DNA of 64,000 nucleotides, taken from positions 70,694-134,693 of the forward strand of contig JBAZNY010000002.1 in the NCBI GenBank assembly GCA_041649025.1. Reading direction: 5' to 3'. This document shows, one piece after another, positions 36,001-42,000 of this stretch (position 1 is the first letter of the stretch; each line of letters starts with the position of its first letter). The position numbers are program-made. The stretch is from Bdellovibrionales bacterium (GTDB lineage: Bacteria; Pseudomonadota; Alphaproteobacteria; UBA9219).

Positions 36001-39000
36001 AGGTTTTCTGTAAATGGCTGCAGTTATCATTCTGGACGAAGTCAAATGCGTCGGATGCAACAAGTGTATTGCAGAGTGCCCTGTCGAAGGGGCCAACGTT
36101 TCCTATCTCAAAGACGGCCGCAGTAAAGTTCGGACTAATCAGGATGCCTGCATTCTTTGCGGTCGATGCGTCGACGTATGCGACCACGGAGCCCGCGATT
36201 ATCGGGACGATACGGAAGCCTTTTTCAGAGATTTGGCCAACGGGGAGCGAATTTCCGTCATTGCCGCGCCCTCTATCCGTTTTAATATTTCCAATTACAA
36301 AAAGCTGTTCGGCTACCTGTCGCAACTCGGAAGCAATCTGATCTACGACGTTTCGTTCGGCGCCGACATATGCACGTGGAGCTATCTTAGGTGCGCCGAG
36401 CAAAAACATCTCGATTCCTTCATCTCCCAAGCTTGTCCGGCCATTGTTTCGTACATTGAAAAACATTGCCCCGAGCTTATCGACCGCCTTGCCCCCTCTC
36501 ACAGCCCGATGCTTTGCACCGCCATTTATTTGAGAAAATACAAGAACATAACGAACAGAATCGCCTTTCTTTCCCCCTGCATCGCCAAGGAGCAAGAGTG
36601 CATCGATACCGACGGCCTTATTTCCTACAACGTCACTTTTAAAAAAATTAAAGCGTATCTTTCAAAAAACAACATCGCCCTCGATATGTATCCCGAAAAG
36701 GATTTCGACGACATCGGATGCGGCTTGGGCGTCGCCTTCAGCCGCCCCGGAGGCTTGCGTGAAAACGTCGAATACCATACGAACAACCAGGCTTGGATAC
36801 GTCAGGTCGAAGGCGTCCGCCCCGCCTGCGATTATCTGAGAAGATATGCCGCACGCGTGAAGACGGGAGAAAAATTACCTTTCCTTATCGACATTCTGAA
36901 TTGTTCGCACGGATGCAATCTTGGAACGGGCACCTGCAAAGAAATCAACGTCGACGACATCGACGCAAAAACGGATCAGCTCAAGAAAGAAAAGCTGAAA
37001 GAGAAGGAAATCGATAGATCGGGAAAAATCATCTACTCTTTGTTTGAAACGTTCGACAAAGAGCTTAGCCTTCAGGATTTTTCGCGAACGTACAAAAACA
37101 AATTGGTTTCGGGCAAACAAAGAGAGTTTACCGAAAGAGAATACGATAAAATGTTCAATGATCTCTACAAGTTCGACGCTGAAAGCCGCCGCATCAATTG
37201 TTTTGCCTGCGGCTATGGCAACTGCAAGGACTTCGCCAAAGCCGTTCTCAGCGGAGACAACCACCCCGGCAATTGCATCAACTACAACCGCGCCGTGGCC
37301 AAAGCGGAACATCAGGAAGTAATGCAACAAAAGCTGAAGGCCGAGGCGGCGACAAGGGCGAAAAGCGACTTTTTAGCCAATATGAGCCATGAAATCCGCA
37401 CGCCTCTCAACGCGGTTCTCGGCATGACCCAGCTTCTTCTCGACACGGAGATGTCTCAGGAACAGCACACATGGGCCCAAATCATCAACCAATCCGGAGA
37501 AAGCCTTCTTGGGTTGATCAACGACATTCTCGATCTCACGAAAATCGAAGCCGAACACCTCAATCTCGAAAGCGTAGACTTTAATCTGTGCTCCGCCGTT
37601 GCCGAAGTGACCGACACGCTCTCCATCAAAGCCCGCGAAAAAGGTCTGGAGATGATCGTTTCTTTCGTCGGCGAGGTACCGGAATATATTAAAGGAGACC
37701 CCGGCAGATTTAAGCAGATTCTTTACAACCTGATCGGCAACGCGACAAAATTCACCCAGAACGGACATATACTGACGCGGATCGTTTCGGAAAAAGTCAA
37801 TAATGACATAATGCTTAAAATTGACGTTGAAGACACGGGCATCGGCATTCCGGAAGAGAAGCTCGCCTACATCTTTGAAAAATTCGCGCAGGGCGAAGAG
37901 TCGACAACGCGCCGTTTCGGCGGAACCGGACTTGGCTTGGCAATCTCGCAAAAGCTTATTCGTCTTATGGGCGGCGAAATCAACGTTACAAGCAAGGAGG
38001 GCCTGGGATCGACATTCTCTTACACCATCCGCATGCGCCCGGGTTCCTCTGAAAACACCATTCAGGAAGTACCCGATGTCTCCCTTAAAAATAAGCGCGC
38101 CCTTATCGTCGACGATTATCTTTTTGGCTGCGAAATCACCAAAGGATGCCTGGATGGTTTTGGCATCAGAGCCGACATCGCAACGACGAAAAAAGAAGCC
38201 CTACAGAAGGTTCTGGACGCGCTGAAAGCCAAGGATCCTTATGATTTTATGATCCTTGATTATAAGCTCGGCGAAGAGAACGGGCTTACGCTATGCGACG
38301 ATATCGCGTTCGCGAAAGGCAGCGCCCTTATGCCTATGATTATTATGGTCACGGCGTACGGATACTTTTCAACGCTTGAAAATCTGGCGGCTCACGGCGT
38401 TATGGGCTTTATGGTCAAACCGTTCTATCCCGCTCAAATGGAAACGACGCTCAAGCTGATTTTGAACGGACGATTGAAAAACATTCCTTTACCGGTCGTC
38501 ACGCGCCACACCGTGTGCAAGATTTTGCATGACGATCTGGCTTCGGAAAATTTAGAAACGGAATCATTTAAAGGCACAAAAATTCTCGTCGTCGAGGACA
38601 TGCCCTTCAATCAGCTTCTTATGACTAAAATTTTGAATAAATTCGGGTGCAACGTCGATATGGCGTCGGACGGATCACAAGCACTGCAGAAAGTCAAAAA
38701 AGTTGATTACGATATCGTCTTTATGGATTGCCAGATGCCGGTTATGGACGGCTATGTTGCAACGCGAGAAATTAGAGAAATTGAAAATAAACTCAATAAA
38801 CACACGCCCATTATCGCCCTGACCGCCGACGCCATGACGGAAGATCGCGAGAGGTGTTTTCAAGCCGGCATGGACGATCATCTTGGCAAGCCCTTTAAAC
38901 AGGAGCAGATTGTGGAGATGATTAAAAAATACAAACCCAAAGATAATTCAGGAAACCCCGCTTGAATGGACTGGTGCAGGACGCGCCAACGGCGTTGGGT

Positions 39001-42000
39001 CTTAATGTTTGCTTTAACTCTTGAAGAAATGCACGGATCCCTTTCATGCGCAAAGAAACCGACATTTTAGGAAACGTAGAAATCGATGATTCCGCTTTGT
39101 GGGGCATTCATACAGAGCGCGCCCTGCAAAATTTTGCCGTTTCAGAACGGCGTGTTCCTTTTTCTCTGATTGCAGCCATCGTCACAGTCAAACAGGCGGC
39201 GGCACAGGCCAACGGAGAGCTGGGATATCTTCCACAAAACATCGCCGACGTCCTTGTGGCAGCCTGCGGCAAAATTTGCGGAAATGAAAACGACACGATG
39301 GCTTCTTTTCCCCTCGACGCGTTGCAGGGCGGCGCCGGCACATCCACGAATATGAACGTCAACGAAGTCATCGCCAATGTCGCGCTTCAGGCGATGGGGA
39401 AAAAAGCAGGCGCTTACGACGCCCTCCATCCGCTTAACCACGTCAATCTGCATCAATCGACGAACGACGTGTATCCGACGGCTCTCAGGATCGCCGCCAT
39501 ATCCGGCCTGAGGTCGCTTTCGGACGCGCTCGCAAAACTTCAGGGCGCGATGCAGAACAAGGAAAAAGAATTTCACGACATCCTTAAAATGGGGCGCACG
39601 GAATTGCAGCCTGCCGTGCCGATGACGCTGGGACAGGAGTTTTCCGCCTATTCCGAAGCCGTCGCGCGCGACCGCTGGCGCACGTTTAAATGCGAAGAAC
39701 GCCTGCGCATGGTCAACATAGGAGGAACAGCTATCGGAACGGGTCTGACGGCGCCCAGGGACTATATCTTCCGCGTCATTGAAATACTGCGCTCGCTCAC
39801 GGGCATGGGGCTTGCGCGAAGCGAAAACGTCATCGACGGCACGGCAAACGCCGACGTTTTTGTCGAAGTTTCCGGCATTTTAAAAGCCGCCGCGACGACG
39901 ATGGCCAAAATCGCGGGAGATTTGCGCCTTCTGCATTTTTTGGGCGAAATCGCCCTGCCGCCCATGCAAACCGGATCGTCCATCATGCCGGGAAAAATTA
40001 ATCCCGTCATGACGGAAAGCGTGATGCAAGCAAGTCTTGTCGTCCGCGCTAACGATTTTATGATCGCCGAGTGCGCGGCACACGGTACGCTTCAGATCAA
40101 CGAGTTTATGCCGCTCATTGCCAGCGCCCTTCTTGAATCCATCGATATCCTGAAGAATTCAGCCCTTGCGCTCGCGCCGCATATCGACGCTATCAAGGCC
40201 GACGCCGAACGCTGCCGCAGTTTCGTCGAAAACAGCCCCGCCCTGATGACGGCTTTGCTGCCGCACGTCGGCTATGAAAAGACGCTGCTTCTGATGAACG
40301 AATTCAACGCCCTTAAAAAGAAAAACGCCGAAACTTTCATTACGAGCTTTCTCGCCGAAAAACTAGGCAACGAGATCGCCAAAACCGTTTTATCCACGAC
40401 GAATTTTATCGGCCTTGGATACGTGAAAAAGGAACATAAAGAATGATCGACCAGACTCCCAACACTCCGAAAGCGATGCGCCTGCATATTGGAATCATGG
40501 GCAGAATGAACGTCGGAAAGTCTTCGTTCTTGAATATGGTGGCCGGACAAGATGTCGCCATTACTTCGCCTGAGGCTGGAACGACGACGGATGTCGTTGA
40601 AAAGACTATGGAATTGTTGCCTTTGGGGCCTGTCGTTTTGCTGGATACGGCGGGGATCGACGACACGTCCGCGCTCGGCATCGCGCGTGTCGATAAGGCG
40701 AAAAAAGCCGTCCAGCGCATGGATGTTCTTGTGCTTATCGTCACGCCCAACGACTGGAGCGAATTCGAAGACGCCTTGGTGAACGAGGCTCATGCCCACA
40801 ACATTCCGGCGCTTGTCGTCATCAACAAGACCGATTTGGCGGAACCTTCGACCGATTTTCTCGCCCTTCTGGACGTCAAAAAACTTTCTTGGGTCGCAGG
40901 AAGTTCGACCGACGAATCCAAAAAAGAAGATTTCAAAAATGAATTCAAGCAAAGCCTGCGCGCTATGCTTCCCCGCCTTTTCGCCGCGCCGCAATCCCTT
41001 ATCGGCGACTTGCTGCCGCCCGGAGGCATGGCGGTTTTTGTCGTTCCCATCGATCTTGGCGCGCCGCAGGGGCGCCTTATCGTTCCTCAAGTGCAGGCGT
41101 TGCGCGATCTTCTCGACAACGACGCGTCAGCCCTTGTCGTCAAAGACAGGGAATACGCCGCGACGCTTGCGCGGCTTAAAAAAATGCCCGATCTCGTCGT
41201 GTGCGACTCTCAGGTGGTCGCGCGCGTCGTCGCGGATACGCCTGAAAGCGTTCCCCTGACGACTTTTTCCATTCTTTTCTCGCGCTTTAAGGGAGATCTC
41301 GCGCTGCAAGCCGAAGGCGCGGCAGCGCTTGAAAAATTGAATGACGGAGACAAGGTTCTGATTGCGGAAGGATGCTCGCACCATCCGATGGAGGATGACA
41401 TCGGGCGCATCAAAATCCCGCGCTGGCTTAAGCAATATAGCGGAAAAAACATTACGATTGAGTCTTCCGCAGGGCACGATTTCCCCGCGAATTTACAGGA
41501 TTATAAGGTCGTCATTCATTGCGGCGGCTGCGTCATGACAAAGCAGGAAATGTCGTCGCGCCTGTCCATCGCCAAAGGAAAATCCGTGCCGATGACAAAC
41601 TACGGCATTGCGATTTCCGCCCTGCAGGGGGTTTTGAAGCGCGCCCTGTCCCCCTTCCCCGCCGCGCTCGCAGCCTATGAGAAGGCAAAGAAATTTTAGT
41701 GCCTCAGGCTTTCAGGGTTAAGGCCTTTTAGTCTATCCACGAACGTATTTCTCTGATCTTCCGGCTCCGAGATTCCGGATGCCTTCAATATCATAGAACG
41801 AGCGGACGCGATATGCATCTCATCTCTCTTCCCGATATACGGATCTCCCGCACCCTCTTTCACAACGCCATACGCGACATTTGCAAGATGCGGGTTGCGT
41901 TTCAAAACGGAGCTTAACGGATCACGCTTCCCCATGACATGGGGTGTCGCGGTCGCCTGTGATAAAATAGGTAACAACCTATCATCAGCACCCGGAAATT

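What the first reader, a model, noticed from the sequence alone, without database searches (positions are those of the whole stretch)
36014..41699. [FeFe]-hydrogenase-like sensory domain fused to a hybrid histidine kinase, in an operon with aspA and the H-cluster maturase hydF
Seen in sequence: the 983-aa protein starts with two ferredoxin-type [4Fe-4S] motifs and an H-cluster-like domain. It retains motif L2 (SPCIAKEQE, equivalent to MPCxxKxxE) and L3 (DILNCSHGCNLGTG, equivalent to ExMxCxxGCxxGG). It then continues into HisKA, HATPase and two receiver domains. 80 nt downstream is an aspartase-type lyase (GGAGTS, GSSIMPGKINPV). Its stop overlaps the start of a clear HydF (G-domain VGKSS...GTTTD...DTAG, C-terminal CSHH...HCGGC). 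Established knowledge: HydF is the scaffold/carrier that delivers the [2Fe] subcluster to [FeFe] hydrogenases. Sensory (group C-type) [FeFe] hydrogenases are predicted mostly from genomes and are barely characterised. I recall aspA homologs near hyd maturation genes in some anaerobes (e.g. Desulfovibrio). Its role is unproven, possibly nitrogen supply for the azadithiolate ligand. Inference: this is an H2- or redox-sensing two-component kinase whose sensor needs HydF-dependent maturation. The fixed HK-aspA-hydF arrangement, with no catalytic hydrogenase or hydE/hydG in the window, is unusual.
Basis: partly seen in the sequence, partly recalled or inferred. Interest (0 to 1): 0.82.

Follow-up and report, generated by a model that had tools for sequence, protein, structure and literature searches.

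The report
Hydrogenase-like H2 sensor kinase with maturases
An uncultured alphaproteobacterium encodes a signalling kinase whose sensor is a hydrogenase-like domain, placed next to two genes that help build its metal cofactor; this type of putative hydrogen sensor and this gene pairing are already described, but no such kinase has been tested experimentally.

Summary
The window has a 983-aa hybrid histidine kinase (36014-38965). It is followed after 80 nt by an aspartase-type lyase (39046-40446), whose end overlaps a clear HydF (40443-41699) by 4 nt.

The kinase's N-terminal 434 residues are an [FeFe]-hydrogenase-type module. It has two ferredoxin clusters, an H-domain with all four H-cluster cysteines, and a C-terminal four-Cys cluster. 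These ligands are invariant in 214 relatives.

The proton-relay Cys is Ala and the two pocket Met residues are Ser and Leu. This matches the published signature of putative sensory (group C) enzymes.

- HydDB already lists HK-linked (C1) and chemotactic (C2) sensory subtypes.
- aspA next to hydF was published, and AspA's role tested in vitro, in 2024.
- The HK-aspA-hydF order occurs only in the closest relatives.
- hydE and hydG very probably lie elsewhere in the same organism, because a hydE-hydG contig co-occurs in two of the same datasets.

This sensor clade nests among MCP-fused sensors and has no PAS domain. One predicted helix runs from the last cluster cysteine to the phospho-His.

Verdict: a new member of a known, uncharacterised class. 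Interest is moderate.

The parts
36014..38965 (+). Hybrid sensor histidine kinase, 983 aa and soluble. Order of parts: 2x[4Fe-4S] ferredoxin, H-domain, helical linker, C-terminal 4-Cys cluster, DHp/HisKA, HATPase, REC, REC. There is no PAS domain and no Hpt domain.
   Evidence: ORF. Pfam and NCBIfam domains. A 100%-identical database entry, P0121.
36026..36193 (+). Two ferredoxin-type [4Fe-4S] motifs (residues 5-60). Ligands are C12, C15, C18, C22 and C46, C49, C52, C56.
   Evidence: Fer4-family hits. The cysteines are invariant in alignment A1. They are conserved in all of the 214 relatives that cover these columns.
36251..36931 (+). H-cluster domain (residues 80-306).
- A85-P86-S87.
- L1 SQACP: Ala140 at the CpI C299 position, ligand Cys141.
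- L2 SPCIAKEQE: Ser187 at the M353 position, ligand Cys189, Lys192, Glu195.
- L3 DILNCSHGC: Leu295 at the M497 position, ligands Cys297 and Cys301.
   Evidence: PF02906 at 97.1 bits. Residue-level alignments to TmHydA, CbA5H and other solved enzymes. Conservation counts. AF2 model with pLDDT 92 and Foldseek hits only to [FeFe]-hydrogenases.
37193..37279 (+). C-terminal accessory cluster motif (residues 394-422): C396-x2-C399-x4-C404-x16-C421.
   Evidence: PF04060 at 29.4 bits, cut-off 23. The four Cys are conserved in 213-214 of 214 relatives. The literature describes this cluster as a unifying feature of group C and D sensory enzymes.
37277..37555 (+). Signalling helix that continues into DHp/HisKA (residues 422-514). 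The phospho-accepting His459 lies 38 residues after Cys421.
   Evidence: The AF2 model has a single helix at 422-469. H-box SHEIRTP at 458. HisKA at 449-514. Cys-to-His spacing statistics.
37694..38035 (+). HATPase_c catalytic domain (residues 561-674) with N-box 572, G1 607, F 621 and G2 636.
38093..38926 (+). Two receiver domains. REC1 is about 694-812, with DD at the IVDDY motif (698-702), the acceptor Asp in MILDYKL (746-752), and KP in MVKPF (800-804). REC2 is 857-971, with ED, the acceptor Asp in FMDCQMP (903-909), and LGKPF (957-961).
   Evidence: Response_reg, 148 bits, two stretches. Motif positions.
38966..39045 (+). 80-nt HK-aspA spacer with no terminator-like or sigma-70-like site. 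It contains a short palindrome, CCAACGGCGTTGG.
39046..40446 (+). Aspartate ammonia-lyase-type enzyme (466 aa) with GSSIMPGKINPV at 310. Its presumed role is to supply ammonium for the dithiomethylamine bridge.
   Evidence: NF008909 at 543 bits, cut-off 510. Best solved relative is E. coli aspartase 1JSW at 342 bits, against at most 296 bits for fumarases. Pagnier 2024.
40443..41699 (+). HydF, the H-cluster maturation GTPase and scaffold (418 aa). Its start overlaps the aspA stop by 4 nt.
   Evidence: TIGR03918 at 514 bits, cut-off 325.55. HydF_dimer and HydF_tetramer domains. Full-length alignment to HydF structure 5LAD at 359 bits, with CxH...HCxxC conserved.

Best explanation
This is a cytoplasmic putative H2 sensor of the [FeFe] group C type, built as a hybrid histidine kinase. 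It is encoded next to two of the proteins that make its cofactor.

Shown here:
- The N-terminal 434 residues have the [FeFe]-hydrogenase fold. They carry two ferredoxin-type clusters, a complete set of H-cluster ligands and a fourth four-Cys site.
- The residues that make catalytic enzymes fast are replaced: the proton-relay Cys is Ala140, and the two Met residues are Ser187 and Leu295.
- The kinase core and both receivers are catalytically intact.
- aspA and hydF follow the kinase gene and are translationally coupled to each other.

Inferred mechanism:
1. HydG and HydE, very probably encoded elsewhere in the genome, build the [2Fe] precursor.
2. AspA releases ammonium from aspartate for the dithiomethylamine bridge.
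3. HydF completes the [2Fe] subcluster and inserts it into the sensor.
4. H2 binds and is slowly oxidised at the H-cluster. This changes the redox state or conformation of the H-domain and its cluster chain.
5. The change passes through the C-terminal cluster domain. Its last ligand, Cys421, sits at the start of one continuous helix that carries the phospho-accepting His459. This shifts the kinase/phosphatase balance.
6. Phosphate then goes to the internal receivers and, through a separate Hpt protein, to an unidentified response regulator.

The sign of the response and the regulated genes are unknown.
For: Domain calls and curated cut-offs.

Residue-level alignment to solved catalytic enzymes shows the ligand Cys of L1, L2 and L3, plus Lys, Glu and Ala-Pro-Ser. 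It also shows the loss of the E-E-x-x-E proton-pathway stretch.

The H-cluster and C-terminal-cluster ligands are invariant across 94 HK-fused and 120 MCP-fused relatives.

The Ala/Ser substitutions match published group C frequencies: Ala about 43% at the C299 position and Ser about 32% at the M353 position.

The AF2 model has pLDDT 92.3 and pTM 0.88, with helix 422-469. Foldseek returns only [FeFe]-hydrogenases, with E about 1e-22 to 1e-18.

Maturase genes lie beside sensors of this clade in two independent layouts:
- HK + aspA-hydF in the window and in L005-L008;
- hydE/hydG + the MCP-fused paralog in MAG STD2_72, which also carries the HK ortholog.

A hydE-hydG contig comes from the same assembly and run as the window's contig.

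In 52 direct fusions, 49 Cys-to-His spacings fall into two heptad registers, 27/34/48 and 31/38/45/73.

A relative has RR-Hpt-HK in one gene string.

AspA's role in ligand synthesis was shown in vitro.
Against: - No H2-dependent signalling has been shown for any [FeFe] sensory protein, and the role is still called putative.
- In TamHydS the C-terminal cluster is not reduced by H2, which argues against a simple redox relay through that cluster.
- Leu is invariant at the M497 position. [quoted passage not shown]
- No PAS domain is present, although group C is usually described as PAS-containing.
- The link between hydE/hydG and this genome rests on sample co-occurrence and a shared organism label. 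The NCBI protein accessions are about 47,000 apart, which suggests two different MAGs of the same label.
- No partner Hpt or regulator and no hydrogenase or H2-metabolism target is visible in the window.
- The spacing statistic counts many closely related sequences.
Confidence: 0.65

Rival explanations
1. The protein is a redox, O2 or CO sensor rather than an H2 sensor. The same cofactor set is present, but the physiological signal is the reduction state of the ferredoxin pool fed in through the two N-terminal clusters. Alternatively, the signal is destruction or inhibition of the H-cluster by O2 or CO.
For: - The two N-terminal ferredoxin clusters form the usual electron entry and exit path, and in TamHydS they are the ones reduced.
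- The host is an alphaproteobacterium, a group with many facultative or microaerophilic members; this last point is general knowledge.
- No H2-metabolism genes lie nearby.
- The C-terminal cluster of TamHydS does not respond to H2.
Against: - Keeping a dedicated and costly HydEFG/AspA pathway and an invariant [2Fe] pocket is hard to explain if plain Fe-S clusters would do.
- The characterised sensory-type enzymes do react with H2.
Confidence: 0.2
2. The protein is a hydrogenase-like Fe-S protein without the [2Fe] subcluster (Nar1/NARF-like). The domain binds only [4Fe-4S] clusters, and the neighbouring aspA-hydF genes serve another hydrogenase in the genome.
For: - Leu is invariant at the M497 position, and M497L in CpI impaired [2Fe] incorporation.
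- aspA-hydF is absent near more distant orthologs.
- The best NCBIfam hydrogenase model scores below its cut-off (TIGR04105, 137 bits against 450).
Against: - Lys192, Glu195, Ala85-Pro86 and the bridging Cys301 are invariant in 214 relatives.
- TmHydS, with Ser at the M497 position, binds the [2Fe] subcluster normally.
- Sensors of this clade are the only hydrogenase-domain genes found beside maturase genes, and this holds in two different layouts.
Confidence: 0.08
3. The protein is a catalytic hydrogenase with a regulatory tail. The domain turns over H2 for metabolism, and the kinase part merely modulates it.
For: TmHydS retains measurable activity.
Against: - The proton-relay Cys is Ala, and the E-E-x-x-E pathway residues are missing.
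- No partner subunits are present.
- The kinase and receivers are intact output modules.
- The same sensor module is fused to MCP signalling domains in 120 relatives.
Confidence: 0.03

Closest known systems
HydDB [FeFe] group C1, 'histidine kinase-linked (putative)' sensory hydrogenases (Sondergaard, Pedersen and Greening 2016)
   Same: A hydrogenase H-domain coupled to histidine-kinase signalling. The role is predicted H2 sensing and is uncharacterised. Many Fe_hyd_lg_C + HisKA + HATPase + REC fusions exist in several phyla.
   Different: By sequence, this sensor module sits inside the MCP-fused radiation (55-69% identity). Identity to the PAS- or GAF-containing HK fusions is lower, about 40-45%. 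It has no PAS domain. The HydDB classifier itself could not be run.
HydDB [FeFe] group C2, 'chemotactic (putative)' MCP-fused sensors (for example Sporomusa, Desulfotomaculum, Oxobacter, Oryzibacter)
   Same: The same 434-aa module, colinear from residue 1 through the C-terminal four-Cys motif, with invariant ligands. The window's clade of 12 HK fusions nests among 77 MCP fusions in an NJ tree. One MAG carries both types.
   Different: The output is a hybrid histidine kinase with two receivers instead of an MCP signalling domain. Position 140 is Ala here and Pro in all 120 MCP-fused relatives.
Thermotoga maritima HydS (group C) and Thermoanaerobacter mathranii HydS (group D), the only characterised sensory-type enzymes
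   Same: Two N-terminal clusters, the H-cluster and an atypical C-terminal [4Fe-4S] cluster. Ala sits at the proton-relay Cys position and a small residue at the M353 position.
   Different: TmHydS continues into a PAS domain, and neither enzyme carries a kinase. Here the C-terminal cluster domain runs directly into the DHp helix. The M497 position is Leu here and Ser in TmHydS.
aspA-hydF gene pair of hyd maturation clusters (Pagnier et al., J Biol Chem 2024)
   Same: aspA lies immediately upstream of hydF and overlaps it. [quoted passage not shown]
   Different: Here the pair follows a sensor kinase rather than hydE, hydG or a catalytic hydA, and hydE/hydG are unlinked. The in vitro work used E. 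coli AspA, not a hyd-linked enzyme. The protein here misses the strict AspA equivalog cut-off.
HoxJ/HupT with the regulatory [NiFe] hydrogenase HoxBC/HupUV (HydDB [NiFe] group 2b)
   Same: It works like this system in principle: a slow hydrogenase reports H2 to a histidine kinase (listed; the mechanism is from established knowledge).
   Different: The metal site and fold are unrelated. In that system the sensor and kinase are separate proteins. Here they are one polypeptide.

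Membership tests
[FeFe]-hydrogenase H-domain (H-cluster-binding fold) | Sequence match to Fe_hyd_lg_C above the curated cut-off | tested here: met
   PF02906 at 97.1 bits, cut-off 22.1, residues 80-304. PDB sequence hits to TmHydA, CbA5H and CpI with E from 1e-19 to 1e-12.
[FeFe]-hydrogenase H-domain (H-cluster-binding fold) | Four Cys ligands of the H-cluster (CpI C300, C355, C499, and the bridging C503) | tested here: met
   Cys141, Cys189, Cys297 and Cys301 align to them. They are invariant in 214 relatives.
[FeFe]-hydrogenase H-domain (H-cluster-binding fold) | Residues that hold the [2Fe] ligands (CpI A230-P231-S232, K358; also E361) | tested here: met
   A85-P86-S87, K192 and E195 are present. 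A85, P86, K192 and E195 are invariant.
[FeFe]-hydrogenase H-domain (H-cluster-binding fold) | Three-dimensional fold | tested here: met
   AF2 model with pLDDT 92.3. The 50 best Foldseek PDB hits are all [FeFe]-hydrogenases, probability 1.0, TM 0.55-0.63.
[FeFe]-hydrogenase H-domain (H-cluster-binding fold) | Actual binding of the [2Fe] subcluster (FTIR/EPR) | not testable with these tools
   Needs expression and maturation. Caveat: Leu is invariant at the M497 position.
Catalytic (group A-type) [FeFe]-hydrogenase | Proton-transfer pathway (CpI C299, E279, E282) and Met353/Met497 | tested here: not met
   Ala140, Ser187 and Leu295 occupy these positions. The E-E-x-x-E stretch of TmHydA aligns to a gap or to non-acidic residues.
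Putative sensory [FeFe] hydrogenase (group C) | Loss of the proton-relay Cys and a small residue at the M353 position | tested here: met
   Ala140 and Ser187 are present. Published group C frequencies are Ala about 43% and Ser about 32%.
Putative sensory [FeFe] hydrogenase (group C) | Atypical C-terminal four-Cys [4Fe-4S] site after the H-domain | tested here: met
   PF04060 at 29.4 bits, cut-off 23. C396, C399, C404 and C421 are conserved. The feature is described.
Putative sensory [FeFe] hydrogenase (group C) | PAS domain downstream of the C-terminal cluster | tested here: not met
   No PAS family hit down to E 0.01. The model shows the cluster domain running straight into the DHp helix.
Putative sensory [FeFe] hydrogenase (group C) | Covalent or operonic link to a signalling output | tested here: met
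   Fused HisKA, HATPase and two REC domains.
Putative sensory [FeFe] hydrogenase (group C) | Assignment to C1 or C2 by the HydDB classifier | not testable with these tools
   HydDB is not available here. The architecture says C1. The nearest sequence neighbours are MCP-fused, the C2 type.
Putative sensory [FeFe] hydrogenase (group C) | H2-dependent change in signalling output | not testable with these tools
   Never shown for any member.
Hybrid histidine kinase (HisKA type) | H-box His, N/G1/F/G2 boxes, and receiver acceptor Asp and Lys | tested here: met
   H459. Boxes at 572, 607, 621 and 636. Both receivers carry the acidic pair, the acceptor Asp, Thr and Lys-Pro. BarA and TorS models align at 410-420 bits but below their equivalog cut-offs.
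Hybrid histidine kinase (HisKA type) | Hpt domain or partner for the phosphorelay | tested here: not met
   There is no Hpt domain in the protein, and no homolog of the relative's standalone Hpt in the window. Relatives have a fused Hpt (P0132-P0155) or an adjacent 91-aa Hpt gene.
HydF | NCBIfam equivalog score, GTPase motifs, and dimerisation and tetramerisation domains | tested here: met
   TIGR03918 at 514 bits, cut-off 325.55. PF18128 and PF18133. G1-G4 motifs.
HydF | Cluster motif CxHx46-53HCxxC | tested here: met
   C311-S-H313, 45 residues, then H359-C360-G-G-C363. This is one residue shorter than the quoted range. It aligns residue for residue with the 5LAD HydF structure.
Aspartate ammonia-lyase (AspA) | Family model scores and the SS-loop GSSxMPxKxN | tested here: inconclusive
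   It passes subfamily NF008909 (543 bits, cut-off 510) but not equivalog TIGR00839 (438 bits, cut-off 681). GSSIMPGKINPV is present. The best solved relative is E. coli AspA at 342 bits, against at most 296 bits for fumarases. Substrate specificity was not tested.

The most novel reading that the evidence does not exclude
In this alphaproteobacterial lineage the whole HydE/HydF/HydG/AspA pathway may be kept only to mature signalling proteins: the HK-fused sensor here and MCP-fused paralogs in relatives. The H-cluster would then be a dedicated sensory cofactor in organisms with no catalytic [FeFe]-hydrogenase. Signal transmission would need no PAS domain, because the last ligand of the C-terminal cluster (Cys421) is mechanically joined to the phospho-His helix. 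Every hydrogenase-domain gene seen next to a maturase gene in these loci is a sensor. However, no complete genome could be inspected.
Probability: 0.25. Interest if true: 0.65.

Novelty: new member of a known kind. Interest (0 to 1): 0.4.

Why it matters
Whether group C [FeFe] 'hydrogenases' really sense H2 has been open since they were named. Only two sensory-type enzymes have been studied, and neither has a measurable signalling output.

A soluble, PAS-less fusion of the sensor directly to a histidine kinase offers a simple readout, namely autophosphorylation with and without H2. It also offers a short, predictable transmission path from Cys421 through one helix to His459. This protein or a close relative could therefore serve as a test system.

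The locus also shows that one 434-aa sensor module is exchanged between chemotaxis and two-component outputs. It extends such sensors and their maturases into uncultured Rhodospirillaceae-like alphaproteobacteria.

None of this changes the current picture. It fills in a predicted class.

Tried and rejected
1. The sensor-only protein search listed only MCP-fused proteins and missed the identical entry P0121 and its 75-79% relatives. The full-length search recovered them. The claim 'all neighbours are MCP-fused' was therefore dropped, and the two hit sets were analysed together.

2. The two radical-SAM genes in the window (20494-21594 and 24808-26835, minus strand) were tested as possible HydE or HydG. 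Neither matches those models.

3. The genome-contig scan did not contain the window's own genome (best match 79%). It returned only 12 loci, so hydE/hydG could not be looked up directly.

4. Tetranucleotide similarity of the hydE-hydG contig to the window is r = 0.964. This is no higher than for sister species (0.94-0.97), so it does not discriminate.

5. The 201-aa ORF convergent with hydF (41696-42301) has no family hit. It has no homolog next to hyd genes elsewhere.

6. No homolog of the relative's standalone Hpt or response regulator exists in the window.

7. A literature search for a characterised MCP-fused [FeFe] sensor found nothing.

8. The Nar1-like reading was considered and given low weight because the [2Fe]-pocket residues are invariant.

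Full report
**Observation**

- A 983-aa protein at 36014-38965 (+).
- A 466-aa lyase at 39046-40446 (+), 80 nt downstream.
- A 418-aa protein at 40443-41699 (+), whose ATG overlaps the lyase stop by 4 nt.

Pfam finds in the first protein two ferredoxin-type 4Fe-4S motifs (residues 5-60) and Fe_hyd_lg_C (80-304; 97.1 bits against a cut-off of 22.1). It also finds the small 'FeS' domain PF04060 (394-422), HisKA (449-514), HATPase_c (561-674) and two receiver domains.

NCBIfam makes the third protein an unambiguous HydF (TIGR03918, 514 bits, cut-off 325.55). The second passes the aspartate ammonia-lyase subfamily model NF008909 (543 against 510), although it falls below the stricter AspA equivalog (438 against 681). 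Its best solved relative is E. coli aspartase (342 bits). Fumarases score at most 296 bits.

HydF aligns end to end with solved HydF structures and keeps the C-x-H...H-C-x-x-C cluster motif.

**Is the sensor a real H-cluster domain?**

Alignments to solved catalytic enzymes place the residues as follows.
- Cys141, Cys189, Cys297 and Cys301 fall on the four H-cluster ligands.
- Lys192 and Glu195 fall on the L2 Lys and Glu.
- Ala85-Pro86-Ser87 falls on the A-P-S stretch that holds a cyanide ligand.

Three positions differ from catalytic enzymes.
- The proton-relay Cys (CpI C299) is Ala140.
- Met353 is Ser187.
- Met497 is Leu295.
- In addition, the acidic proton-pathway stretch is missing.

These are the positions reported to be altered in sensory enzymes. 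Ala occurs at the C299 position in about 43% of group C sequences, and Ser at the M353 position in about 32% (PMC10055695).

I collected 214 relatives, 94 kinase-fused and 120 MCP-fused. The four H-cluster Cys, Lys192, Glu195, Ser187, Leu295 and Ala85-Pro86 are invariant. The eight ferredoxin Cys are conserved in every sequence that covers them. The four C-terminal Cys (396, 399, 404, 421) are conserved in 213-214 of 214.

An AlphaFold2 model of residues 1-470, built from a 56-sequence alignment, is confident (pLDDT 92.3, pTM 0.88). Its 50 best Foldseek matches in the PDB are all [FeFe]-hydrogenases (E about 1e-22 to 1e-18, TM about 0.6).

The Nar1-like or generic-ferredoxin refutation therefore fails. 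One caveat remains. Leu is invariant at the M497 position, and the M497L variant of CpI was reported to lack a properly integrated [2Fe] subcluster. TmHydS, with Ser at that position, binds the subcluster normally.

**Output module**

The kinase has the H-box His459 and the N, G1, F and G2 boxes. Both receivers have the acidic pair, the acceptor Asp, Thr and Lys-Pro. There is no PAS domain and no Hpt domain.

The model shows one uninterrupted helix from residue 422 to 469. The last ligand of the C-terminal cluster (Cys421) therefore sits at the start of the helix that carries His459, 38 residues later.

Among 52 relatives in which the sensor is fused directly to HisKA, the Cys-to-His spacing takes nine values: 27, 31, 34, 38, 42, 45, 48, 58 and 73. 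Forty-nine of the 52 fall into two heptad registers, 27/34/48 and 31/38/45/73. This is what a continuous coiled-coil linker would give. Many of these sequences are close relatives, so I treat the result as suggestive only.

**Relatives and evolution**

The exact protein is already in public data (P0121, NCBI MFA4993986.1), labelled as from a 'Bdellovibrionales' MAG. Proteins with the same architecture exist at 62-75% identity. Versions with a fused Hpt exist at about 45%. Many PAS- or GAF-containing versions occur in Firmicutes, Desulfovibrionaceae, Acidobacteriota and others.

The 434-aa sensor module is colinear with, and 55-69% identical to, the sensor of MCP-fused proteins of about 637 aa from Sporomusa, Desulfotomaculum, Oxobacter, Oryzibacter and many MAGs.

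I built a neighbour-joining tree (midpoint-rooted, no bootstrap). In it, the window's clade of 12 kinase fusions is monophyletic. It nests inside a group of 77 MCP fusions. That suggests an output-domain swap.

One MAG (STD2_72, GCA_028690155.1) carries both an HK-fused and an MCP-fused copy. Another (GCA_964453225.1) carries two HK-fused copies.

**Gene neighbourhood**

The HK-aspA-hydF order is found in the window's species and in relatives with 72-79% sensor identity (L005-L008). In L005-L007, however, a 240-aa gene on the opposite strand lies between the kinase and aspA. Orthologs at 60-68% identity and the MCP-fused loci have no aspA or hydF within 10 kb.

So aspA-hydF is the tight unit, and its position next to the kinase is lineage-specific.

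In the window the 80-nt spacer has no terminator-like or promoter-like site. Co-transcription is therefore plausible here but is not conserved.

**hydE and hydG**

The window has neither gene, and no second hydrogenase domain.

In MAG STD2_72, hydE (TIGR03956, 306 bits against 255) and hydG (TIGR03955, 513 against 312) lie immediately upstream of the MCP-fused paralog.

I searched with that HydG and found P0217 (72% identical), labelled 'HydG [Bdellovibrionales bacterium]'. It has the same four data sources as the window's kinase. Its contigs come from ENA assembly ERZ27247363 and run SRR8542065. Contigs carrying the window's exact kinase come from those same two datasets. On that contig hydE (305 bits) and hydG (517 bits) are arranged divergently.

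Base composition is compatible but not discriminating. The NCBI accessions suggest two separate MAGs with the same label.

I rate it about 80% likely that the organism has hydE and hydG at an unlinked locus. This figure is my own estimate.

**What is already known**

HydDB (2016) lists [FeFe] group C1 'histidine kinase-linked (putative)', C2 'chemotactic (putative)' and C3 'phosphatase-linked'.

Pagnier et al. (J Biol Chem 2024) reported that aspA is strongly associated with hydF and almost always immediately adjacent to it. They showed by 15N-ENDOR that AspA plus aspartate supplies the bridgehead nitrogen of the dithiomethylamine ligand in a defined maturation system.

The C-terminal cluster is described as a unifying feature of group C and D sensory enzymes. 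In TamHydS it is not reduced by H2, which argues against a simple redox relay through it. The sensory role is still called putative. I found no paper characterising an HK- or MCP-fused member.

**Most likely mechanism**

The protein is a slow, H-cluster-containing H2 sensor. HydG and HydE make the [2Fe] precursor. AspA provides ammonium. HydF finishes and inserts the subcluster.

H2 binding or oxidation then changes the H-domain and its cluster chain. The change passes through the C-terminal cluster domain and the 422-469 helix to the DHp domain. This alters autophosphorylation at His459. Phosphate then moves to the receivers and, through a separate Hpt protein, to an unknown regulator.

A relative with response regulator, Hpt and HK genes in one string supports the relay step. 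No such partner is visible in the window.

The anatomy and the conservation are shown. Cofactor insertion, H2 responsiveness, the direction of the response and the regulon are all inferred. My confidence is 0.65. The main rival, at 0.2, is that the same cofactors report redox state, O2 or CO rather than H2.

**Verdict**

What is modestly new:
- the sensor is of the C2 (MCP-type) lineage but carries a kinase output;
- it lacks a PAS domain;
- it occurs in uncultured Rhodospirillaceae-like alphaproteobacteria.

It would make a practical test system for H2-dependent signalling. I score interest at 0.4 and class it as a new member of a known kind.

Noticed in passing
window 43467-44483 (rpoA) and the whole window: The public MAG that holds this sequence is labelled 'Bdellovibrionales bacterium'. 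However, RpoA is 72% identical to Azospirillum. The nearest genomes are labelled uncultured Rhodospirillaceae or Alphaproteobacteria, with RpoA 95.6% identical in L005-L007. The taxonomic label looks wrong.
   Followed up: partly
L020 7154-8032 (-) and L009 6007-7095 (-): A hydrophobic protein of about 290 aa with no Pfam or NCBIfam family is conserved (48% identity over 292 aa) next to hydE in two species. It could be an undescribed accessory or membrane partner of the hyd maturation locus.
   Followed up: partly
L009 and L010 (MAG STD2_72); L023 and L024 (GCA_964453225.1): Single genomes carry two paralogous hydrogenase-type sensors. One MAG has an HK-fused and an MCP-fused copy. Another has two HK-fused copies of 837 and 1010 aa. 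This suggests separate transcriptional and chemotactic responses to the same signal.
   Followed up: partly
L024 8536-9823 (+): In one relative, a 325-aa protein with a C-terminal receiver and an unassigned 190-aa N-terminal part, plus a standalone 91-aa Hpt protein, lie directly upstream of the sensor kinase on the same strand. This is a candidate complete phosphorelay.
   Followed up: partly
L008 16-2956: In MAG SRP192927_co3_142 the orthologous kinase gene, followed directly by aspA-hydF, is split into two overlapping ORFs of 560 and 431 aa. This is either a frameshift (pseudogene) or an assembly error.
   Followed up: no
window 45807-48587 (-): There is a CheA-like kinase with an N-terminal hydrophobic region, a weak Hpt hit and an HATPase domain. 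CheX and a CheY-like receiver follow it. The group lies just past the rpsM-rpsK-rpoA-rplQ genes, and the kinase's position after rpsM is conserved in L005 and L006. It is the only Hpt-containing gene near the sensor kinase. No link between the two was shown.
   Followed up: no
window 17242-21594 (-): An odd gene string lies beside glyQ-glyS: an alpha/beta hydrolase, a 363-aa protein matching only the N-terminal catalytic part of alanyl-tRNA synthetase, a dCTP-deaminase-like protein, and a radical-SAM protein of the MoaA/SPASM type. The function is unknown, and a genuine full-length alaS lies at 6540-9278.
   Followed up: no
window 38975-38995: A short palindrome, CCAACGGCGTTGG, lies in the 80-nt spacer between the kinase and aspA. 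Its central loop is too small for a terminator hairpin. It could be a protein-binding site.
   Followed up: no
window residue 140 of the kinase (nt 36431-36433): The position equivalent to the proton-relay Cys is Pro in all 120 MCP-fused relatives and in 74 of 94 HK-fused relatives. It is Ala in the window's protein and 12 others. The meaning of this clade-specific change in the active-site pocket is unknown.
   Followed up: no
window 45458-45562 (-); 1798-1869 (+); 15339-15429 (+): Rfam finds the Alpha-operon ribosome-binding-site leader upstream of rpsM, and two tRNA genes. It finds no riboswitch or other RNA element near the kinase-aspA-hydF genes.
   Followed up: yes
window 4933-6252 (-) and 41-1168 (+): A 439-aa pentapeptide-repeat protein and a GGDEF-EAL protein are present. 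Both are ordinary, and neither has a visible link to the finding.
   Followed up: no
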